Shown here in pieces: positions 9,496 to 61,671 of a stretch of 64,000 bases of DNA. Source of the stretch: Escherichia phage SUT_E1620. The notes below the pieces were generated by a model. That model was not told the DNA's origin. It saw only the letters and a program-made list of their open reading frames with translations, and made no database searches. The stretch lies in the sequence record OQ939939; one strand, 5' to 3'. Positions within the stretch are counted from its first letter, which is position 1. The number at the start of each line of letters is the position of its first letter. The position numbers were made by a program, and so were the translations under genes.

Positions 9496-9554
9496 ATTTT
9501 TATTTTTCTGCTTCGGACTTTCTTATCAATCCGAAACTTTCTCTCTCAAATTTA

Positions 9555-9595
9555 TGTGTATATTATACAATAATTATGAGCAGTTGCCAAATGCA
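9555..9595 (-). promoter_or_regulatory. Sigma70-type promoter embedded in 3' end of helicase gene (minus strand)
   Basis: Reverse complement TTGGCA-N17-TATAAT plus conserved downstream box; -35 lies in last codons of ORF 9574..10926. Confidence 0.55.
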
Positions 9596-16484: not shown

Positions 16485-17252
16485 TTATTCAGCAGCCGCA
16501 GCTTTTGCATCCAGTTTAGCACGCTTAGCGGCACCATCATAGTCCTTAGCAACCAGACCACGACGAGACAGCATAGATTTAACACCGCGCTCAGACTTAC
16601 CAGTTTTCTCAGCGATCTCAGCAACAGTCATGTTAGCCAGATCCAGACCTTCTAACAGATCTTCACGAGTTTTAGCACTTGAAGTTTCCTGTACCGGCAT
16701 AGCAGCGATACGACCTTCACGAAGCAGACTCAGAGCTTTACCACGGATCTGCTTAATATTGCGACCGAAGTGAGCAGCGATAGCTTCAATAGTAGCACCA
16801 GCAACAACCTGATTAACGAAATCAGTTTCTTCGTCAGGAGTGAAGGAACGAACAGCAGCAGCTTTTTCGGTTGGCTTAACAGAAGCAGTCATTTCCAGAC
16901 TCAGGATCTTACCCTGTACCTGCTTAGCACCGAACTGACCACCAGCTACAGCAGCAGCGATTTCAGCGTAAGTATACTGACCAGCATGAGCGTTCAGGAA
17001 ATCAACCAGTTCAGCTTCCTGCTCAGGAGTCCACGGGGATTTCTGTACTTCGTTTGCTTTCTGTACTTCGAAACCTTCTTTACGCAGCTTAGAGCCAACA
17101 GAGCGAGCGGTAACGTCTTTACCAGTCTCGGTAGCCAGTTCAGCAGCGATAGCAGCTACTTGTTCTTGAGAGATTACAGCAACACCCAGAGCAGTGGCTT
17201 TTGCTTTCAGAGACTCGGTTACACCTTCTACGTTCCAGTTCAGTTTAGACAT
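16485..17252 (-). CDS. Abundant DNA-binding protein (T5 D5-like position), Ala-rich with internal repeats
   Basis: 255 aa; host-optimal codon usage; duplicated GxKxLSL/HTH-like segments; synteny next to ligase genes. Confidence 0.55.
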   Translation of the reverse strand: MSKLNWNVEGVTESLKAKATALGVAVISQEQVAAIAAELATETGKDVTARSVGSKLRKEGFEVQKANEVQKSPWTPEQEAELVDFLNAHAGQYTYAEIAAAVAGGQFGAKQVQGKILSLEMTASVKPTEKAAAVRSFTPDEETDFVNQVVAGATIEAIAAHFGRNIKQIRGKALSLLREGRIAAMPVQETSSAKTREDLLEGLDLANMTVAEIAEKTGKSERGVKSMLSRRGLVAKDYDGAAKRAKLDAKAAAAE

Positions 17253-21638: not shown

Positions 21639-21654
21639 ATTTAAACTCCTCTCT

Positions 21655-21710
21655 CAAATTTATGAATCTATTATACAGAAAATTTTTGCATAAAGCAAGA
21701 AAATTTTTAA
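21655..21710 (-). promoter_or_regulatory. Sigma70-type early promoter (minus strand)
   Basis: Reverse complement TTGCTT-N17-TATAAT plus CATAAATTTGAGAGAG box. Confidence 0.7.
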
Positions 21711-22377: not shown

Positions 22378-25290
22378 TTATTCTTCACTATCATTTCTAG
22401 CTCCCAATTCAGCAAGAGCTTCCTCATGCATCTGACGTTCTTCGTCTGTCATAAACTTAACTGGAATCGGCATACATTCGATCTTACAGTAAGTTCTGTA
22501 CCAGTCCACAATCTTTTCCGTATCCAGATCTTTACCGATACCCATCATGCCAAGATACATACGAGCATATTTTGGGTTAGCACTCTGACCTGTCTTAAGG
22601 AAGAAATCCTTCTTCTTATTCTTAAGAGCTTCGATAAACGGTTTGATTGTTACATTTGAACACTTCTTAATATCTTCCCAGAACATGTCGTGCATCTTAT
22701 GGAAGAATGCAGCTCTATCGTTTGGTTTATCCTTGATATACTGTTCAACGTGTTCCACTGTTACATCTTTAATAGAATCCAGATGATAATAGCGAACCAG
22801 AAGTAACTTGGCTTCATAGGCATCTGCATGACGTGGTGCGCAATATTCAGGAGTTGAGTGCAAAATAGCTTTGATTCGCTCTTCTGTATACTCTTTGCCT
22901 GCACCTTCGATAGTCCCCCAGCTTTCACTGAAGATATCAATAGTTGCACCTTGATCGAGAAGATAATAACGCAAAGTACTGGTATAGTTTCTAGATTCCA
23001 GCTCACGACGGCGTGCGTACAGTTGCTGAGCTAACTCAATCCAACCCTCGTCAATATTATATTGCTCGGAACCCGCAGAGAATCCACTCGTAGATTTATC
23101 AATAAAATAATAAATGTTCTGAGCACCACGGTCGCGCCTGATTGCTTGAAAACGCATGTTTGGCGCTTGGTTTGAGGTTCTAGTGATTACGAATACGTTA
23201 TCAAAATAGTTAAAGTCAACACCACTCGTTACAGATGGACTACATAACAAACAATCAATCTGTTGATCAATTAGCTCATTAGTTGTATAATCCAGAATAC
23301 GTCGGATATCTACATCAGACGTAGAGTTTGAGTGAATTTCTTTAACTAACGCACCAGTATTACGACGTAATGCCATTCCTTTTTCATTCAGTTCATCCGG
23401 TCCACAGTCAGATACTAGGATTGACTTCTCACCCATCTCTAGAGATGTTTGAAGTGCAACCCAAATACTGGATTCGTCAGGGAATTCATAAGCGTGAGCT
23501 TTCGCCAGCATTTTACGGTGATGATTATAGAATGCAACTGGTTTATCAAAATCAATCAAAGAACCATAGGCTTCAATCGTTTCTGCACTGATATCACCAT
23601 CAGATAAGATAACAGTTTTAGCAGTAATAAGGATATCACGAAGAACCTGAATACATTCACGACGGTTTTTAACAACCGGAGCGAATAACAGATCATTCAT
23701 TACTGCGTCACATTCATCAATAAAGATCGTATCAATCTGACCCACAAAGCTCTTGAACTTATGGATAGAGTGAATAGTTGAAGACATACGATCAATAGCA
23801 CCACGTTTGAAGTTCAGCATATCAACTGACTTATCATACTGGCCAGCACCGAATTTCTTCGCGTTAGAAGATACAAGTGCCCTAGTATTTGTGATTGCAA
23901 TAAAGTTTCCTGGAAGAACACCTGCATCTAGCCACTTAGTTACTGCTGTAGTTTTACCCGTACCAAGACTTGCCTTAACAAATGTTAAATGTCCTTTTGG
24001 GGGTACAATGTTAATCTTCAGGTATGGAACTTCGGGAGGTGAATCTGTATCCAGACGTTTTAATGGTACGCCTTTTAAGTTGGGCGGAATCTCACGTTTG
24101 GAGTTATTTACAAATGCTTTGAGAGCCTGCTTACGACCGTTATTAAAGTAATCTTGAATATTACGACTATTATCTTTAGTTGCAATATATTCAGATAAAG
24201 CTGGTTTAATCTCACGTTCTAACCACGTAAAGTCAACACCATCTTCTAACGCTCTGTGATAAAGTTTTGGGATAATACGCAGGTACACTCCATCCTCAGC
24301 TTCTTCTAGCTCGCTGATGGTTTCTTCCACTTTATCAGATGCAGCCTTCTTGCCTTTAATTTGGTCAAGTAAGGAGTAGAATTCTTCTTTGAACTCACCT
24401 CTAGTTGTTTCAAAGTCAACTAGGTTATTAGGTAGATTCACCTTCGAACCCTTAACATACACAAGACGTGGTTTATTCTCCGCTTTAAACGGATCGACTA
24501 TACCATCATCAAATAGGGGATCTGCAAAATAGTGAAGCTGAACAGAAGAATAATAAGCTAAGTCAGCAATATCAAAGCCATACTTTTGCTTACTACTGTC
24601 ATTTATAGATGTAAATAAGAACTTTAACTGTCCCTGCGTTACCTTGACATTAGATTCTAGCATTAAGTGCATTCGGATACCTGGTTTTAATCCAGCCGAA
24701 GACGATGCATGGGCAATAAACCCTGCATCAAGAGGAAACATATCCTCACTAATACTATTCAACATCTTAATAATATGACGTGCCATGCCAACAAGATTAA
24801 ACTTGTCATAGCCCCCAGTATCTACAATACCATCCACGTCCATAGCAATAATATGACTAGGATTGGATACGTTAAAGTTTCCTCTGGTACGACGCACATT
24901 ATCTTTTGGAGCTAAACATTTACCACGAATAGCTACAATATGCGGGTCTTTGGTAAGACGACGCATGATAGGTAACATTTCAGCAAGGTTTTGCGGGTCA
25001 AGTTCTTCAAGTACATCAAATTTGAAGGGCATGGAAGCTGGTTTACCTTCTGGATGCTCTTTAGAGAATCGCTTTGCAAAGGTGTAATCTTCCACTTTGA
25101 TCTCTTTCCAGATGCCAGTGGCTTTATCTCTGGAAAATCCTGCGTGACCTTGTAGGATTGAGAACACAACAATACTCCTATGTTGGTTATTCGGATATCT
25201 TTCTTTAGGACTATTCAAAAGAATAGAACAACTATTACTACCATTTACACAAACATTAATCATCATCAAGCAGTATGAATAAGTTATCAT
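22378..25290 (-). CDS. Replication-origin-binding-protein-like ATPase/helicase (large, ~900+ aa); true start uncertain
   Basis: Walker A LGTGKTT, Walker B-like FIDECDA; large size and position as in T5. The first ~60 codons of the track ORF look non-coding. Confidence 0.6.
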   Translation of the reverse strand: MITYSYCLMMINVCVNGSNSCSILLNSPKERYPNNQHRSIVVFSILQGHAGFSRDKATGIWKEIKVEDYTFAKRFSKEHPEGKPASMPFKFDVLEELDPQNLAEMLPIMRRLTKDPHIVAIRGKCLAPKDNVRRTRGNFNVSNPSHIIAMDVDGIVDTGGYDKFNLVGMARHIIKMLNSISEDMFPLDAGFIAHASSSAGLKPGIRMHLMLESNVKVTQGQLKFLFTSINDSSKQKYGFDIADLAYYSSVQLHYFADPLFDDGIVDPFKAENKPRLVYVKGSKVNLPNNLVDFETTRGEFKEEFYSLLDQIKGKKAASDKVEETISELEEAEDGVYLRIIPKLYHRALEDGVDFTWLEREIKPALSEYIATKDNSRNIQDYFNNGRKQALKAFVNNSKREIPPNLKGVPLKRLDTDSPPEVPYLKINIVPPKGHLTFVKASLGTGKTTAVTKWLDAGVLPGNFIAITNTRALVSSNAKKFGAGQYDKSVDMLNFKRGAIDRMSSTIHSIHKFKSFVGQIDTIFIDECDAVMNDLLFAPVVKNRRECIQVLRDILITAKTVILSDGDISAETIEAYGSLIDFDKPVAFYNHHRKMLAKAHAYEFPDESSIWVALQTSLEMGEKSILVSDCGPDELNEKGMALRRNTGALVKEIHSNSTSDVDIRRILDYTTNELIDQQIDCLLCSPSVTSGVDFNYFDNVFVITRTSNQAPNMRFQAIRRDRGAQNIYYFIDKSTSGFSAGSEQYNIDEGWIELAQQLYARRRELESRNYTSTLRYYLLDQGATIDIFSESWGTIEGAGKEYTEERIKAILHSTPEYCAPRHADAYEAKLLLVRYYHLDSIKDVTVEHVEQYIKDKPNDRAAFFHKMHDMFWEDIKKCSNVTIKPFIEALKNKKKDFFLKTGQSANPKYARMYLGMMGIGKDLDTEKIVDWYRTYCKIECMPIPVKFMTDEERQMHEEALAELGARNDSEE

Positions 25291-25654
25291 ACCTCAGTGC
25301 TGCGCTCTCTTAACTCTTATCCAGATCAGAACCTAGGTCATTGGCCGCTAAGCCGATTCTGATTGCCCTCACTATCCTATTGGTAGGTGGCTACTGGACG
25401 TGTCACCATTCGCTGCTCTTTTCGTTCGCACCCCCATATAAAGCTCTGCCTATATAACGAGCTAAATATGCACGGTTTGGATTTACCTTTCCGAATTCAG
25501 GGTACGCAGATCACTTAATTGATAATTAACTAATGCAGTATAAACACTAGTAATAGTTAAAACAACCCTTAATGGGGCAGCCTAACTGTTCCGTATTGCG
25601 GATTGTAAACAAGAAAAATTAGCAAAATCAATTTTTACTAATGTCTCTCATTTA

Positions 25655-25700
25655 TGGGAATATTATACTATAAAATAATACTCCCTTGCAAATGAAATTT
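25655..25700 (-). promoter_or_regulatory. Sigma70-type promoter (minus strand) with ~350-nt leader before origin-binding-protein gene
   Basis: Reverse complement TTGCAA-N17-TATAAT plus CCCATAAATGAGAGA box. Confidence 0.6.
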
Positions 25701-26152
25701 TACTGGATTGATTCCCTACCGTATAATTGACCTCTAAACATCTTGGCCATAGAACATGCAACCTCATAGTTGTCATATGTTCCTTTAACTATACGTTTAC
25801 GGTTAATAGTAAATACTACTTGCCAATTCTTACTACCAGAAGGGTAAACATGCATTCCTTTCTTATATTTGATATTTCTTAGATTACCGGATACTGTTTG
25901 CTCTCTAAGATTTTCAATACGATCATCACCTTTTATAGTATTCACATGATCTACTAAATCAGGTAAGTATCCATGATGCATTAAAAATATTGCTCTATGC
26001 CGAAGCATAGTCCTATTCCCTAGAGATATACGATAATATCCGTTACCCGTAGAAACACAACATTCTTTCCCTGCATTTCTTCCTGTAGTTCTAAATAACT
26101 TACCATCTTCATATCGGAAGTTATCTAAAAGTTCTTGCTGTGTGAATGACAT
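25700..26152 (-). CDS. HNH homing endonuclease
   Basis: Motif HRAIFLMHHGYLPDLVDHVNTIKGDDRIENL; start set at internal Met MSFTQQ. Confidence 0.75.
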   Translation of the reverse strand: MSFTQQELLDNFRYEDGKLFRTTGRNAGKECCVSTGNGYYRISLGNRTMLRHRAIFLMHHGYLPDLVDHVNTIKGDDRIENLREQTVSGNLRNIKYKKGMHVYPSGSKNWQVVFTINRKRIVKGTYDNYEVACSMAKMFRGQLYGRESIQ

Positions 26153-42364: not shown

Positions 42365-42410
42365 TTTGCTTTCAGCTCCAAAATTCTGTATAATATATTC
42401 ATAAATTTGA
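42360..42410 (+). promoter_or_regulatory. Sigma70-type early promoter
   Basis: TTGCTT (42366-42371), N17, TATAAT (42389-42394), CATAAATTTGAGAGAAC box. Confidence 0.75.
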
Positions 42411-42434
42411 GAGAACAACAAAAGGAAAACAATT

Positions 42435-45780: not shown

Positions 45781-46621
45781 TAAATTAGAGAACAGCGAGC
45801 CGATTACGCTGAGTGAGTTTAGTGATTCCTACTAGGATAGCTATTCCACTGAATAGAGTCGGTGAGTTGGAGACTAGTAAGTACTCTGAGAGAGGCTACG
45901 AGCTAACGCTTATTGCTATTGATAGGGAACTGAAAATCTGCGGAAAACTCGGGAGCTGTCCCGAAATCTCGTAAACTCTTCTCTAGTTTATGTTAGTGGG
46001 GTGTCGAACTGACTTATGTGATAACACTGCCGTCCTAGTATAAACGGTAATATCAAACCGTAACTGGTGGAAGATGCAGGTTCGAATCCTGCGGTCGGAA
46101 AGAATCAGATAACTCGGGCTTATACCGGATAAGCATTCGCTGCTGGAGTACATACTATGACGGTTCAGGAGGTACGCCGCCTGATCAGTATTAGGTTAGA
46201 ATCGAAACAGCTAAACCACGAGGAAACCTGACGGCCTCAACCAAACTCGGAACTCGGGATCACTGCCTAGTGTGTGCCCCGTTTAACATAGAGACTAGGC
46301 ATCGAAAATCGGAGGTGTGATTCTACCAGACCGCGTGAATATGAGAGTGGGAAATGCTGGCATGAGAGATGTCACTAATGGTGCCCAATAGTACAGGTAA
46401 TTCGCGATAATTCCTGTTGAGTGGCAGCAGTAGGCTGGGAGTCATGACCTAAGCCTAACCGAGTTCTTCACATACGGAGAACATAACCACAAAGTCACCC
46501 TGACTTAAACTGGAGGATATTGTCTGACGGAAGGGCTGCAGAGCTTAATCTGAGGGGGCTGACCCTACCTACCGTCGGGTATCTTTAAGAGCTTTTATAA
46601 GAGTTCTTAAAAATACCTAAA

Positions 46622-50377: not shown

Positions 50378-50941
50378 ATGTTTAAGACAATACCTGAATT
50401 TCCTATGTATAAAATTTCTGAAACAGGCAAAGTTTACTCATTGCATGTTAACAGAGAAATAGCTACTTATCTTAACAATAAAGGTTATCCATGTGTTAAG
50501 CTAAGTAAAAATGGTGTTGAGCATACTCTTTTAATATCTAGACTATTATGCAGAGTATTTAAAGATTTAGAAGATCTTTATTCCTCTAAAGAAGTAGACC
50601 ATAAAGATAGAAATCCGGCAAATTTTGAACTAAGCAACCTACAAGTTCTTAGTAAAGAAGAGCACGTAATAAAAACATGTTCTGATAACAATATTAGTAG
50701 AAGAACGGATGTTTGTCCTATTTGTGGTGATACTAAGCATAAATCCTCAAAAGCCTGCTTAAAGTGTACTGCTTCGGCTAGGATTAAGAGTAGAGATATT
50801 ACAAAAGAAGATATAGAGTATTGGGTACGAAACTTCTCCTGGGCTAGAGCTTCAAGAGAACTTGGACTATCTGATAATGGACTCCGAAAGAGATATAAGG
50901 CTCTTGGGGGAGACCCTAAAAATATTTGCACCTTTAGCTGA
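50378..50941 (+). CDS. HNH homing endonuclease with C-terminal DNA-binding module
   Basis: HNH core (EVDHKDRNPANFELSNL), Cys cluster, C-terminal LSDNGLRKRYKALGG shared with ORF 52201..52782. Confidence 0.75.
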   Translation: MFKTIPEFPMYKISETGKVYSLHVNREIATYLNNKGYPCVKLSKNGVEHTLLISRLLCRVFKDLEDLYSSKEVDHKDRNPANFELSNLQVLSKEEHVIKTCSDNNISRRTDVCPICGDTKHKSSKACLKCTASARIKSRDITKEDIEYWVRNFSWARASRELGLSDNGLRKRYKALGGDPKNICTFS

Positions 50942-50999
50942 GATGGATTAGCGCTTGCCTGAAGAGCTTGAGAGGTTGGATCGTTACCAACGGGGTGCA
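50928..50999 (+). tRNA. Candidate tRNA-Phe (anticodon GAA) with non-canonical T-loop and weak anticodon stem
   Basis: 7/7 acceptor pairing GCACCTT/GGGGTGC, D-stem GCTG/TAGC, anticodon loop CTGAAGA, T-stem GTTGG/CCAAC with loop ATCGTTA (54/58 swapped), A73-CCA; anticodon stem has two U-U mismatches. Confidence 0.45.
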
Positions 51000-59651: not shown

Positions 59652-59999
59652 ATGAGCCGTACATATCGTAAACAATCTGGTGATCAGTGGTGGAAATCTA
59701 AAGCTAAGTATATTCAGGAGTACACGTTCCTTAAAGGGAGTGGCTACTGGATTCGGGTTACTTACGCTAAATCCTGGGATGAAATAGAGCAGGAAATGAA
59801 GGAAGCAACTATCCACAACGAGAAAAAGGATGGTTACAACTGGGATTCTGTTAGCAAGAATGTTAAGTGGCATTCTAACAAAATGGTTCGTCAGGGAAAC
59901 CGTCGTGAGCTTCACCGTGTGATGAAAGATCCAGAAAATTACGACTATAATCGCGATCATGACCTGCGTAAGCGTGGGTTGTGGTGGTGCTACGACTAA
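59652..59999 (+). CDS. Hypothetical basic protein (115 aa)
   Basis: ORF with RBS GGAGGTAA. Confidence 0.55.
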   Translation: MSRTYRKQSGDQWWKSKAKYIQEYTFLKGSGYWIRVTYAKSWDEIEQEMKEATIHNEKKDGYNWDSVSKNVKWHSNKMVRQGNRRELHRVMKDPENYDYNRDHDLRKRGLWWCYD

Positions 60000-60005
60000 G
60001 GAAAT

Positions 60006-60503
60006 ATGGAAACCTGGAAAGACATAACAGGTTTTGAGGGTAAATACCAGATATCTAATAATGGGAATGTCTCTAGTTATTTATCTGGTAAAATTCTCAA
60101 ACCCCAAGTAAATAGACAAGGGTATCTTGTCGTCAACCTATATTATGAAGTAGGTAAAGCTAGAAAATTTAGGATACACAGACTTGTAGCTGAGCACTTT
60201 ATACCTAATCCAGATAATAAACCCTTCGTTAATCATCTGGATGGTGATAAGTCAAATAATGACGAGGATAACCTAGAATGGAGCACCTCGGAAGAGAATA
60301 ATAGACATGCCCGTGAAAATGGTTTAGCTAATTGGGCGAAAGGGGAACAGCATGGTAGGTGTAAACTATCTGATGCAGATATCTTTTGGATAAGAAGTCA
60401 TTATCAGCCAAGAAACCGAGAATTTGGTCAAGCTGCTTTAGCTAGGATGTTCGGTGTAAGTCAACCTCACATATCGTATATAATTAACGGGCATAAAAGG
60501 TAA
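60006..60503 (+). CDS. HNH homing endonuclease with C-terminal HTH
   Basis: N-terminal ITGFEGKYQISNNGNV motif, HNH-like HRLVAEHFIPN...NHLDGDKSNN, C-terminal HTH-like segment. Confidence 0.7.
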   Translation: METWKDITGFEGKYQISNNGNVSSYLSGKILKPQVNRQGYLVVNLYYEVGKARKFRIHRLVAEHFIPNPDNKPFVNHLDGDKSNNDEDNLEWSTSEENNRHARENGLANWAKGEQHGRCKLSDADIFWIRSHYQPRNREFGQAALARMFGVSQPHISYIINGHKR

Positions 60504-60509
60504 AAATGA

Positions 60510-60560
60510 AATAATTCATTTGCTAAAGAACCTCTTTATTGATATAATATTTATATAAAT
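60510..60560 (+). promoter_or_regulatory. Sigma70-type early promoter
   Basis: TTGCTA (60519-60524), N18, TATAAT (60543-60548), ATAAATTGATAGAGAGGG box. Confidence 0.7.
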
Positions 60561-60579
60561 TGATAGAGAGGGCTTTGAA

Positions 60580-60861
60580 ATGAAAACTCGCCTAGACTGT
60601 GCTGTTCATGTACTTGAGCATGATATTATTGGGACTTGTATGTCCTATCATGAAGCAGGCAGAATGATTGTTAAACGTGTTGCTGATGTTTGTAGTTTGA
60701 AAATCACAGAAGATGAAGCAGACGAACTGCTTGGACAGGCAATAGAGAAAACAGAAATTTTCTTATGTGATTCTTGTTCTTGGTGGTGTGAAGCTCACGA
60801 ACATTCTTTCAATGATTATGACATATGCCGTGACTGTAAAGAGGACGATGAAGATGAATAA
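60580..60861 (+). CDS. Hypothetical Cys-rich acidic protein (93 aa)
   Basis: ORF after consensus promoter; CDSCSWWC...CRDC motifs. Confidence 0.55.
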   Translation: MKTRLDCAVHVLEHDIIGTCMSYHEAGRMIVKRVADVCSLKITEDEADELLGQAIEKTEIFLCDSCSWWCEAHEHSFNDYDICRDCKEDDEDE

Positions 60862-61150
60862 GTTTATTATTGCTCTAGTAATTTCAGCAGTTAGTTTCGG
60901 TTCTCTGGCATCTACCAAAGTTTCTATGAAAAATAATAATGTTAGAGTTCAGCAGAACGGTATTACCACTGAATACGGTAAAGTTAGGTCGGTAAAGGAA
61001 CGTAATGGTAATATAGAAATTATGACCAATAAAAATTTCTCAACGCCAGCAGTAACTATTCACCGTAATGGTAATATTACTACTCAACGTTCTAATAACT
61101 CCGATTCCTTCACTTGTCGTTACGACTGTGATGTTGAGATGGAAGAATGA
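60848..61150 (+). CDS. Secreted small protein (signal peptide)
   Basis: Start at MKMNKFIIALVISAVSFGSLAS after AAGAGG RBS (track ORF starts further upstream in overlap). Confidence 0.55.
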   Translation: MKMNKFIIALVISAVSFGSLASTKVSMKNNNVRVQQNGITTEYGKVRSVKERNGNIEIMTNKNFSTPAVTIHRNGNITTQRSNNSDSFTCRYDCDVEMEE

Positions 61151-61671
61151 TTACCCAGGAAAGATTAAAAGAATTACTGATATATGATCCGGAAACAGGA
61201 TTATTCTATAGACGCCTAAAAAGCGGTAGAATAAAACCCATAAATAATAAACCTAATAACTATGGGTATATTCAGATTAGGGTTGGGAATGGATATAGGG
61301 AATTAGCACATAGATTAGCCTTCTTATACATGGAAGGGTATATTCCTGAATTTGTTGATCATATCAATAGAATTAGAGATGATAATCGATGGAGTAACCT
61401 TAGGGATAGTTCTAGACAGGAAAATAACAGGAATAGAGCTGCTACTAGCAACTCAGGATACTTAGGAGTATCTTGGGATATTCACCTCCAGAAATGGAGG
61501 GTTTATACTAATAATGATGAGGGTGCAAGAGTTTATGGTGGTCTCTTCAATCATGAAGACTTAGAATCTGCGGTATACAAAGCCAATGGGCTGCGTCTAG
61601 AACTGCACGGTACTCTCGCAGTTATTGAAGAATTTACAGGCTTTCCAAAAGAAATGGAGAGAAGAACGTGA
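61147..61671 (+). CDS. HNH homing endonuclease
   Basis: Motif HRLAFLYMEGYIPEFVDHINRIRDDNRWSNL and AP2-like segment (YLGVSWD...KWRV). Confidence 0.8.
   Translation: MITQERLKELLIYDPETGLFYRRLKSGRIKPINNKPNNYGYIQIRVGNGYRELAHRLAFLYMEGYIPEFVDHINRIRDDNRWSNLRDSSRQENNRNRAATSNSGYLGVSWDIHLQKWRVYTNNDEGARVYGGLFNHEDLESAVYKANGLRLELHGTLAVIEEFTGFPKEMERRT

What the first reader, a model, noticed from the sequence alone, without database searches (positions are those of the whole stretch)
25291..25655. Long ORF-free leader upstream of the origin-binding-protein-like gene
The consensus promoter at ~25655-25700 is ~350 nt upstream of the first in-frame ATG of the 970-aa ATPase ORF, and the first ~60 codons of that ORF look non-coding, so the real leader may be longer. 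The interval has GC-rich patches (25320-25440) unlike the AT-rich spacers elsewhere. Adjacency to an origin-binding-type protein makes a cis-acting replication element a reasonable guess.
Basis: inference. Interest (0 to 1): 0.45.

Follow-up and report, generated by a model that had tools for sequence, protein, structure and literature searches.

The report
Structured leader RNA before T5 replication helicase
The long gene-free stretch in front of the replication helicase gene of this T5-like phage is a roughly 490-base RNA leader with a conserved, elaborate fold that matches no catalogued RNA family, and its function has not been tested.

Summary
The window is a T5-like phage. The "970-aa ATPase" is the D2/T5.108 bipolar helicase. 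Its real start is GTG 25167, not ATG 25290, so a T5-type early promoter (-10 at 25667-25662, start near 25655) is followed by a 488-nt untranslated leader on the minus strand.

The leader keeps its length (471-497 nt) in six lineages of T5-like phages. It has no conserved ORF, iterons, tandem repeats or DnaA boxes. It does have a conserved secondary structure with strong compensatory covariation: 44 of 77 pairs against 11-17 in slid controls, and 91% of cells paired against 42-46%.

The fold has these parts:
- a 5' hairpin;
- a conserved bulged hairpin;
- a stalk of about 45 bp;
- a multi-branched core with an invariant CU-UAGC-GG hairpin;
- a hairpin ahead of the ribosome-binding site.

G.U pairs outnumber A.C cells 100 to 8, which points to RNA in the sense orientation. 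The roughly 260-nt core exists as two unalignable cassettes that share the same architecture.

Rfam 15 has no match, and I found no description in the searchable literature. I think it most likely acts in cis on processing and expression of D2 mRNA. An R-loop or primer role at a replication origin, or a released trans-acting RNA, remain open.

The parts
25662..25691 (-). Sigma-70 T5-type early promoter (-35 TTGCAA 25691-25686, 18-nt spacer, -10 TATAAT 25667-25662).
   Evidence: Consensus scan. The homologous promoter is annotated in T5 and AKFV33.
25645..25655 (-). Inferred transcription start (A at 25655) and T5-type initial transcribed sequence AUAAAUGAGAG.
   Evidence: TATAAT-N-CATAAAT(T)TGAGAG occurs 4 times in the window against 0.13 expected. 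The start position is inferred by analogy with the T5 PN25 promoter (my own knowledge, not checked here).
25607..25653 (-). P1: 5' hairpin. GAGAGA pairs with UUUUCU at the base, and AUUAGUAAAA pairs with UUUUGCUAAU above it.
   Evidence: Helix 1 in alignments A2 and A4, with compensatory changes in 6-7 pairs. Annotated as a 'terminator' in phage Shivani. Coordinates.
25562..25606 (-). P2: bulged hairpin holding the near-invariant string AUACGGAACAGUUAGGCUGCCCCAU (25596-25572). Types A and B extend it with an outer stem, ACAAUCC pairing with GGGUUGU.
   Evidence: Helix 2 of A4 is 100% paired, with 5 of 9 pairs showing compensatory change. Helix 2 of A6. Covariance model R1 finds exactly one copy in the window.
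25504..25559 (-). 5' strand of the long-range stalk (about 45 bp in all; helices 3-5 of alignment A6).
   Evidence: Inverted repeat I1. Helices 3 and 4 of A2 and A4 carry AU/GC/UA swaps. Helices 3-5 of A6 hold 45 pairs, 99.6-100% paired.
25306..25503 (-). Multi-branched core, including the GC-rich patch. It exists as two unalignable cassettes (type A here and in T5; type B in DT57C, SP15 and others) with the same architecture.
   Evidence: Alignment of 13 phages. Sliding identity falls to about 40% in the core while the flanks stay at 90-97%. Compensatory changes occur within type A and across lineages B-F.
25325..25363 (-). Island stem-loop. A covarying stem encloses the invariant hairpin GGCU-UAGC-GGCC (25354-25343) and a 3' internal loop.
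   Evidence: CUUAGCGG is invariant in all 11 sequences of A2. The flanking stem has 7 of 8 pairs with compensatory change. The motif is also present in the Providencia/Proteus-type leaders.
25229..25305 (-). 3' strand of the long-range stalk, interrupted by a branch hairpin (25293-25272). That hairpin contains the spurious ATG 25290.
   Evidence: Same evidence as for the 5' strand. The branch hairpin is helix 17 of A6, with two compensatory pairs.
25211..25226 (-). Last hairpin, CUAUUC-UUUU-GAAUAG, about 35 nt upstream of the ribosome-binding site. No U-tract follows it.
   Evidence: Helix 18 of A6. The equivalent hairpins in other lineages have different sequences: CUUUCC/GGAAAG in DU_PP_V and CUAUC/GAUAG in Sugarland (read). 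No terminator was called.
25165..25179 (-). Ribosome-binding site AGGAG (25179-25175) and the true start codon GTG (25167-25165) of D2.
   Evidence: Annotated start in relatives. ATG at the aligned column in lineages C-F. Upstream in-frame stops in other lineages.
22378..25167 (-). D2/T5.108 helicase gene (929 aa), the 'replication origin binding protein' of database annotations.
   Evidence: phrog_3712 full-length match. Pfam Herpes_ori_bp at 22 bits over residues 391-533 only. Biochemistry in PMC3632103.
25700..26152 (-). Free-standing HNH homing endonuclease gene immediately upstream. It is context, not part of the RNA, and is absent from T5 itself.
   Evidence: Pfam HNH_3, E = 2e-11. Annotated in relatives. 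Absent at this place in T5.

Best explanation
The interval is the 488-nt 5' untranslated leader of the mRNA for the D2 (T5.108) replication helicase. It is made from a strong T5-type early promoter. It acts as a folded RNA, not as a DNA site.

Shown here:
- The leader adopts a conserved architecture: 5' hairpin P1; bulged hairpin P2 with a near-invariant sequence; a long-range duplex stalk of about 45 bp; a multi-branched core of roughly 200 nt closed by that stalk; an invariant CU-UAGC-GG hairpin inside a covarying stem; and a final hairpin ahead of an accessible ribosome-binding site.
- Helices are kept by compensatory changes across six phage lineages, even though the core sequence is unalignable between cassette types.

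Inferred:
- No terminator or second promoter separates the fold from D2, so every D2 message must carry it. I therefore think it acts in cis on D2 expression.
- The most likely route is processing. The long duplex stalk is the kind of substrate that double-strand-specific RNase III cuts in phage early mRNAs and in rRNA precursors.
- A cut there would detach a stable structured RNA and leave D2 mRNA with a new, hairpin-protected 5' end. That would set the amount and timing of the initiator helicase.
- The invariant loops would be protein contact sites, with D2 itself or another early protein as candidates.
For: Promoter and start. True start codon, and hence leader length.

No conserved ORF. 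Length conserved at 471-497 nt while identity between lineages is 43-64%, against 65-95% for the D2 protein.

Structure:
- The minus strand folds with z = -5.0, the plus strand with z = -2.2.
- A2 (11 sequences): 62 pairs, 93.5% of cells paired against 40-52% with slid partners, 31 pairs and 77 cells with double changes against 10-15 and 11-20, 0 of 500 shuffles as high on four of five measures and 5 of 500 on further pair types.
- A4 (lineages B-F): 77 pairs in 12 helices, 90.9% against 42-46%, 44 pairs with double changes against 11-17.
- A6 (16 type A leaders including the window): 152 pairs, 99.8% paired, 13 compensatory pairs against 0-1.

Strand: 100 G.U cells against 8 A.C cells.

No terminator between the fold and D2. 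One copy per genome region searched. Found only in T5-like phages.
Against: The function is not shown. No transcript, cleavage or binding data were available.

The leader does not consistently sequester the D2 ribosome-binding site. Mean unpaired probability of the SD-to-start region is 0.20-0.49 with the whole leader and 0.31-0.54 with local sequence only, and the pairing partners differ between lineages. Simple translational occlusion is therefore unsupported.

A 490-nt fold with 12 or more helices is much more than a nuclease site or an operator needs. The wholesale exchange of the core between near-identical phages fits a module with a function of its own at least as well as it fits a D2 regulator.

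The structures were predicted on the sense strand, which favours G.U over A.C to some degree. The sequences are related, so the shuffle controls overstate significance. The slid-partner controls are the fairer test.
Confidence: 0.45

Rival explanations
1. Origin transcript. The promoter fires into this region and the folded RNA forms a persistent RNA-DNA hybrid (R-loop). The hybrid primes leading-strand synthesis, exposes single-stranded DNA on which D2 loads, or both. This would resemble ColE1 RNA II or the promoter-plus-unwinding-element origins of T4 and T7. The conserved fold would steer hybrid formation.
For: - The element lies next to the initiator-like helicase D2, whose amber mutants make no DNA (PMC3632103).
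- A strong promoter is followed by a very AT-rich first ~50 nt (GC 0.24 at 25600-25699).
- Size and degree of structure resemble RNA II.
- The T5 origin has never been mapped at sequence level.
- The locus sits near the middle of the T5 genome (59.1-59.5 kb of 121.75 kb). As I recall, electron microscopy placed a first-round origin there, but I could not retrieve that paper.
Against: - There is no direct evidence.
- The GC-skew minimum is about 7 kb away.
- No antisense regulator promoter lies inside the interval.
- Recombitron editing of T5 shows a strand bias. Its authors read this as dominant unidirectional replication from one genome end (PMC10055335).
- T4- and T7-type origins need no elaborate RNA fold.
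Confidence: 0.2
2. Trans-acting structured RNA. The stalk is a processing stem that releases the ~200-300-nt core as a stable non-coding RNA with its own job, such as host takeover, counter-defence or a catalytic or scaffold role. D2 merely shares the promoter.
For: - The architecture is a long duplex closing a compact multi-helix core, as in rRNA precursors.
- The core is exchanged as a cassette between otherwise 90-97% identical phages, a pattern typical of arms-race loci.
- The fold is too complex for a simple operator.
- The D2 ribosome-binding site is not controlled by it.
Against: - No terminator or independent transcription unit is present.
- The position directly upstream of D2 is fixed in all six lineages.
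- Core type tracks the D2 clade. This is equally expected from linkage.
- No target or partner is known.
Confidence: 0.2
3. Classical double-stranded DNA origin. D2 or another initiator binds repeated DNA sites here and melts an adjacent AT-rich element.
For: - The element is adjacent to the 'origin-binding protein' gene.
- There is one exact CGTTCGCAC at 25423-25431, which as I recall matches the core of the HSV UL9 box I.
- AT-rich flanks.
Against: - No iterons, tandem repeats or DnaA-box matches in the interval.
- The CGTTCGCAC string is single and absent from type B and the other lineages.
- D2 resembles UL9 only in the helicase motifs, not in the DNA-binding domain.
- Conservation is of pairing rather than sequence, and it is strand-specific.
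Confidence: 0.05
4. No function. The stretch is a decayed gene or recombination scar next to a homing endonuclease, and its apparent structure is fortuitous.
For: Mosaic junctions, an adjacent HNH endonuclease gene, a ~97-nt insertion and a local duplication in some relatives.
Against: - Length and architecture are kept across six lineages whose core sequences are unalignable between cassette types.
- 44 of 77 pairs show compensatory change.
- 99.8% of cells are paired within type A.
- No remnant ORF is present.
- The element is present whether or not the endonuclease gene is there.
Confidence: 0.03

Closest known systems
Leader of the phage lambda N gene (nutL region with an RNase III-processed stem)
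   Same: A long structured untranslated leader follows an early promoter. It sits in front of a key early gene and includes a long duplex that could be an RNase III site affecting expression.
   Different: As I recall, the lambda leader is about 220 nt with defined boxA/boxB elements and a known protein partner. This leader is about 490 nt with 12 or more helices, has no nut-like motif detected (Rfam), and cleavage is untested.
ColE1 RNA II replication primer
   Same: A structured transcript of about 500 nt from a dedicated promoter, lying next to replication functions. The fold could determine R-loop formation.
   Different: No antisense RNA I-type promoter lies inside the interval. No origin is mapped here. 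No sequence similarity to any plasmid was found. The transcript continues into a protein gene.
Large structured non-coding RNAs associated with phages (ROOL, GOLLD)
   Same: Large size, many covarying helices, phage context, unknown biochemical function.
   Different: No match to those or to any other Rfam 15 model, even at E up to 10 for the window interval and up to 1 for ten related loci. Here the RNA is the leader of a specific mRNA and is confined to T5-like phages.
RNase III processing stalks of rRNA operons and T7 early mRNAs
   Same: Distant complementary segments form a long duplex of about 45 bp that encloses a structured RNA.
   Different: Cleavage is not shown. The stalk is AU-rich and irregular, and it carries a side hairpin.
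HSV-1 oriS with the UL9 origin-binding protein
   Same: The neighbouring protein shares SF2 helicase motifs with UL9. One CGTTCGCAC string is present.
   Different: There is no palindromic arrangement of boxes around an AT spacer. The string is not conserved between cassette types. No similarity to the UL9 DNA-binding domain was found.

Membership tests
Iteron- or DnaA-type DNA replication origin | Several direct repeats (iterons) that bind the initiator. | tested here: not met
   Only one weak 15-nt two-copy repeat, which overlaps the promoter. There is no tandem array in 25168-25699.
Iteron- or DnaA-type DNA replication origin | DnaA boxes. | tested here: not met
   TTWTNCACA gives 7 matches in the 64-kb window against 7.6 expected, and none lies in the interval.
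Iteron- or DnaA-type DNA replication origin | AT-rich unwinding element. | tested here: inconclusive
   GC is 0.24-0.29 at 25600-25699 and 25200-25299. Such values are common at T5 promoters and spacers.
Iteron- or DnaA-type DNA replication origin | Compositional skew inflection at the origin. | tested here: not met
   The cumulative GC-skew minimum is at about 32-33 kb, where gene orientation switches.
Iteron- or DnaA-type DNA replication origin | Initiation of DNA synthesis mapped at the site. | not testable with these tools
   The T5 origins are not mapped at sequence level.
HSV oriS-type origin (UL9 boxes) | Inverted UL9 recognition boxes flanking an AT-rich spacer, conserved among relatives. 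| tested here: not met
   A single CGTTCGCAC at 25423-25431, with no partner box. It is absent from type B cores.
Any Rfam 15 RNA family (riboswitches, ribozymes, group I/II introns, 6S, RNase P, ROOL, GOLLD and others) | Score at or above the family's gathering threshold. | tested here: not met
   Only tRNAs elsewhere in the window pass. At E up to 10 the interval gives only chance-level hits of 9-20 bits. Ten related loci give nothing relevant at E up to 1.
Conserved structured RNA (general criterion) | Base pairs maintained by compensatory substitutions beyond the controls. | tested here: met
   A4: 44 of 77 pairs against 11-17 when partners are slid, and 90.9% paired against 42-46%. A2 and A6 agree.
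Conserved structured RNA (general criterion) | Strand specificity (G.U tolerated, A.C avoided). | tested here: met
   100 G.U cells against 8 A.C cells. Pairing falls to 75.7% on the complementary strand. Fold z is -5.0 against -2.2. Caveat: the structure was predicted on the sense strand.
Conserved structured RNA (general criterion) | Transcription of the element. | not testable with these tools
   Inferred from the promoter and from the lack of any other promoter for D2. No RNA data were available.
Translational operator or riboswitch-type leader that occludes the ribosome-binding site | Conserved pairing of the SD or start codon with leader sequence. | tested here: not met
   Accessibility is similar with and without the leader, and the partners differ between lineages. 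No consensus pairs involve the last ~60 nt.
Intrinsic terminator or attenuator (P1) | Stable hairpin followed by a U-tract, conserved. | tested here: not met
   The scan calls no terminator. The U-run after P1 is present in types A-D but is replaced by CCUCUCAUUC or UCUCUUAUUC in Sugarland and Eos, where it pairs with GAGAG.
RNase III processing stalk | Duplex of about 20 bp or more formed by distant segments. | tested here: met
   Helices 3-5 of A6 form 45 pairs between 25559-25504 and 25305-25229. Long-range helices are conserved by covariation in all lineages.
RNase III processing stalk | Cleavage by RNase III. | not testable with these tools
   Needs RNA-end mapping in rnc+ and rnc- hosts.
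ColE1 RNA II-type primer | Antisense regulatory RNA promoter within the primer region. | tested here: not met
   No plus-strand promoter-like site lies inside 25168-25655. The nearest (25699-25727) lies just outside and reads into the endonuclease gene, away from the leader.
ColE1 RNA II-type primer | Persistent RNA-DNA hybrid and RNase H-made 3' end used by a DNA polymerase. | not testable with these tools
   Needs DRIP-type and primer-mapping experiments.

The most novel reading that the evidence does not exclude
The folded leader is the RNA component of the never-mapped T5 replication origin. In this reading, transcription from this early promoter yields a structured RNA that forms an R-loop and primes or licenses D2-dependent initiation, which would be a ColE1-like RNA-guided origin in a large lytic phage. 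The exchangeable core cassettes would then be origin-specificity modules that travel with their D2 allele.
Probability: 0.18. Interest if true: 0.85.

Novelty: new variant of a known kind. Interest (0 to 1): 0.6.

Why it matters
T5 is a classic model phage, yet how its replication starts and how its initiator helicase D2 is controlled are unknown. This work defines a large RNA of about 490 nt, with 12 or more helices supported by covariation, at exactly that locus. It gives coordinates, conserved loops and natural cassette variants that can be mutated directly.

Large structured bacterial and phage RNAs of unknown function are rare, and several have turned out to have unusual biochemistry. This one is absent from Rfam 15 and occurs in hundreds of sequenced T5-like phages, including therapeutic candidates.

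There is also a practical point. Many database records start the D2 gene too early or annotate small spurious ORFs inside the leader.

Tried and rejected
- Known RNA families. Rfam at gathering threshold and at E up to 10 on the interval, and at E up to 1 on ten related loci, gave nothing. tRNA and tmRNA scans found nothing in the interval.
- Coding potential. No conserved ORF on either strand. The 41-codon N-terminal extension of the ORF is not conserved.
- Iterons, tandem repeats and DnaA boxes: none.
- GC skew as an origin marker. The minimum is elsewhere.
- HSV box I-like CGTTCGCAC. Single copy, type A only, so treated as chance.
- Rad anti-retron element of T5. It lies in the tRNA-region deletion, not here.
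- Resemblance to RNase P RNA. Shared 7-8-mers noticed by eye were rejected. About 3 shared 8-mers are expected by chance between sequences of these lengths, and no Rfam RNase P model scored.
- Occlusion of the ribosome-binding site by the leader: not supported.
- P1 as a conserved terminator: rejected, because the U-tract is not conserved.
- Wider distribution. A two-motif pattern scan of metagenomes found only T5-like contigs plus 5 unrelated chance hits. No similarity was found in plasmids or E. coli genomes. Covariance model R1 (P1+P2) found no copy in the Providencia, Proteus, Vibrio or Aeromonas T5-like loci. The upstream regions of the Vibrio and Aeromonas phages have unremarkable folding z-scores.
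- Structure-aware alignment. mafft-qinsi was unavailable. A home-made alignment using pairing probabilities was no better than MAFFT. A MAFFT alignment of the isolated island hairpin was out of register and was not used for a model.
- Literature. Seven searches found no description of this leader. The 1976 electron-microscopy origin paper could not be retrieved.

Full report
**What the window is.** The interval and its surroundings match 441 T5-like phage records, 258 of them over at least 80% of the query. The best match is Salmonella phage bobsandoy at 99.8%. All features of interest lie on the minus strand.

The 970-aa ORF (22378-25290) is the homologue of T5.108. Databases call it "replication origin binding protein". 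Wong, Sayers and Sanders characterised it as the D2 bipolar SF2 helicase. Its amber mutants make no DNA, and the authors proposed a role in initiation (PMC3632103).

The "origin-binding" label rests on weak similarity. Pfam Herpes_ori_bp scores 22 bits over residues 391-533, the helicase motifs. The solved UL9 structures match at E = 0.007 over the same stretch.

The ORF immediately upstream (25700-26152) is an HNH homing endonuclease. It is absent at this place in T5 itself.

**Checking the observation.** A promoter TTGCAA-18-TATAAT lies at 25691..25662. It is followed by CATAAATGAGAG, and the string TATAAT-N-CATAAAT(T)TGAGAG occurs four times in the window against 0.13 expected. As I recall, this is the conserved initial transcribed region of strong T5 early promoters such as PN25, which puts the start at A 25655. 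T5 and AKFV33 annotate a promoter at the homologous place.

The ORF's first ATG (25290) is not the start, for four reasons:
- Relatives annotate a 929-aa protein that begins at the GTG equivalent to 25167, behind AGGAG.
- More distant lineages have ATG in that alignment column.
- In T5 an in-frame stop lies 27 codons upstream with no start codon between.
- In four other lineages a stop lies 1-14 codons upstream.

The untranslated leader is therefore 25655-25168, 488 nt. The GC-rich patch is real: 0.50-0.51 at 25300-25449 against 0.24-0.37 around it. No ORF in the leader is conserved between lineages.

**Conservation pattern.** I collected leaders from GenBank phages, IMG/VR and metagenomes. 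From the promoter to the D2 start they measure 471-497 nt in six lineages:
- type A: this window, T5, AKFV33, Shivani;
- type B: DT57C, SP15 and others;
- Pectobacterium phage DU_PP_V;
- Pectobacterium phage My1;
- Klebsiella Sugarland-like phages;
- phage Eos.

Leaders of different lineages are only 43-64% identical, while D2 proteins are 65-95% identical.

Between T5 and a type B Tequintavirus the flanks are 90-97% identical. A sharply bounded core of about 260 nt drops to about 40%, which is unalignable. So the core exists as exchangeable cassettes.

A few strings survive everywhere or nearly so: AUACGGAAC...GGCUGCCCCA near the 5' end, and CUUAGCGG in the core. The 8-mer also occurs in the longer (~615 nt) leaders of Providencia/Proteus-type relatives, inside a comparable stem.

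**Structure.** The minus-strand transcript folds with z = -5.0 and the plus strand with z = -2.2.

| Alignment | Sequences | Pairs | Cells paired | Cells paired, partners slid 1-3 columns | Pairs with compensatory change | Same, slid controls |
|---|---|---|---|---|---|---|
| A2 | 11, all lineages except Eos | 62 | 93.5% | 40-52% | 31 | 10-15 |
| A4 | 8, lineages B-F | 77 in 12 helices | 90.9% | 42-46% | 44 | 11-17 |
| A6 | 16, type A including the window | 152 | 99.8% | 36-51% | 13 | 0-1 |

In A2, 77 cells carry double changes against 11-20 in the slid controls. No shuffle of 500 reaches the observed value on four of the five measures, and 5 of 500 do for further pair types. In A4, 83 cells carry double changes against 15-25. 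The sequences are related, so the shuffle control is generous. The slid-partner control keeps relatedness and is still clearly exceeded.

G.U cells outnumber A.C cells 100 to 8 in A4. The same pairs read on the other strand are only 75.7% paired. This points to an RNA in the sense orientation rather than a DNA hairpin or cruciform. The caveat is that the prediction was made on that strand.

**Anatomy in window coordinates**:
- P1, the 5' hairpin: 25653-25607.
- P2, a bulged hairpin with the near-invariant sequence: 25606-25562.
- A long-range stalk of about 45 pairs between 25559-25504 and 25305-25229, with a side hairpin at 25293-25272. That hairpin contains the spurious ATG.
- A multi-branched core: 25503-25306.
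- The island stem-loop at 25363-25325, with the invariant GGCU-UAGC-GGCC hairpin at 25354-25343.
- A last hairpin: 25226-25211.
- About 30 nt of little structure, then AGGAG (25179-25175) and GTG (25167).

**What it is not.**
- It matches no Rfam 15 family.
- It has no iterons or tandem repeats, and no DnaA-box pattern falls in the interval.
- The GC-skew minimum of the window lies at 32-33 kb, where gene orientation flips.
- The single CGTTCGCAC, which as I recall is the core of the HSV UL9 box I, at 25423-25431 is confined to type A. I treat it as chance.
- P1 was annotated as a terminator in Shivani. However, the U-run is not conserved in the Sugarland and Eos lineages, where the same positions pair with GAGAG, and the scan finds no terminator anywhere between promoter and D2.
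- The leader does not systematically hide the D2 ribosome-binding site.
- The element is single-copy. It was not found in plasmids or E. coli genomes, and in metagenomes it appears only on T5-like contigs.
- The literature searches turned up no description of it. The T5 Rad anti-retron locus is elsewhere in the genome.

**How it most likely works.** Three things are shown: a promoter, an obligatory 488-nt leader, and a conserved sense-strand fold. The rest is inference.

No terminator or second promoter intervenes, so every D2 mRNA carries the fold, and a cis role in D2 expression is the default reading. The feature most suggestive of a mechanism is the long duplex that closes the core. This is the architecture that RNase III cuts in rRNA precursors, in T7 early mRNAs and in the lambda N leader.

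Cleavage would release a compact structured RNA. It would leave D2 mRNA starting shortly before the last hairpin, which would set stability and yield. The invariant loops (the P2 bulges and the UAGC hairpin) look like protein or tertiary contact sites. I give this reading about 0.45.

Two rivals remain serious. First, the transcript could be the RNA part of an origin, as an R-loop or primer. That would fit the neighbour D2, the AT-rich promoter-proximal DNA and the mid-genome position. [quoted passage not shown] I give this about 0.2.

Second, the excised core could be a trans-acting RNA with its own function. That would best explain why the core is swapped as a cassette between near-identical phages. 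I give this about 0.2.

A classical DNA origin (0.05) and a functionless scar (0.03) are poorly supported.

**Novelty and verdict.** The interpretation as a replication element is only partly supported. What is there is a large, previously uncatalogued structured leader RNA, conserved in the T5-like phages sampled from Escherichia, Salmonella, Klebsiella and Pectobacterium hosts. In kind it belongs with structured phage mRNA leaders and large non-coding RNAs. Its size, its cassette-like core and its position before the initiator helicase make it a distinct variant. Interest is 0.6.

Noticed in passing
window 25168-25290 (-): The mechanical 970-aa ORF over-extends D2 by 41 codons. Several GenBank records also start the gene too early or annotate small 'hypothetical proteins' inside the leader (for example SP15, NBSal003 and Sugarland-like phages).
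   Followed up: yes
L010 (DT57C), L026, L033, L040: just after P1, equivalent to window ~25607: A ~97-nt insertion flanked by the direct repeat TTTTTCTT sits in the leader of some phages with type B cores and one with a type A core. No other copy occurs in the fetched loci. It may be a small mobile element.
   Followed up: partly
L002 (Shivani) 2010-2190; window 25600-25700: Where the HNH endonuclease gene is present, the promoter region differs from T5's. Shivani carries both versions as a ~120-bp duplication of promoter plus P1, which looks like a footprint of endonuclease-gene insertion.
   Followed up: partly
L003 (oselot) 1049-1079: ATTTTGCTA is repeated three times in the 3' arm of P1. 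The record annotates it as a repeat_region.
   Followed up: no
window 9543-9567 (-), 21651-21675 (-), 42389-42413 (+): Three further promoters carry the same TATAAT-N-CATAAATTTGAGAG initial transcribed motif. The one at 21651-21675 looks like the PN25 homologue.
   Followed up: partly
window 46029-46100 (+) and 50928-50999 (+): Two tRNA-like Rfam hits (29.3 and 33.4 bits) in the tRNA cluster are not called by ARAGORN. They may be degenerate or unusual tRNAs.
   Followed up: no
L066/L051 (Aeromonas phage TS3, record 59956-61545); L049 331-1431 (Vibrio phage JSF10): Distant T5-like phages also have very large ORF-poor regions upstream of the D2/obp gene: 1.59 kb between divergent obp and nrdD in TS3, and 1.1 kb in JSF10. 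TS3 has two CUUAGCGG strings and a P2-like ACGGAAC...GUUAGGCU. The P1+P2 covariance model did not hit it, and the folding z-scores are unremarkable.
   Followed up: partly
window 25423-25431 (+): A single exact CGTTCGCAC, which as I recall is the core of the HSV-1 UL9 box I. It is present only in type A cores, so it is probably coincidence.
   Followed up: yes
D2 gene, about nt 1025-1100 from the start (window ~24070-24140): There is a second local drop in nucleotide identity (about 65%) between type A and type B phages inside D2. Core type also tracks the D2 clade: at least 94% protein identity to the window's D2 for type A against at most 92% for type B. This could reflect co-inherited modules.
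   Followed up: partly
window 16523-16532 (+): A second exact GCTTAGCGGC lies elsewhere in the window. It is within the chance expectation for this 10-mer when one mismatch is allowed.
   Followed up: no
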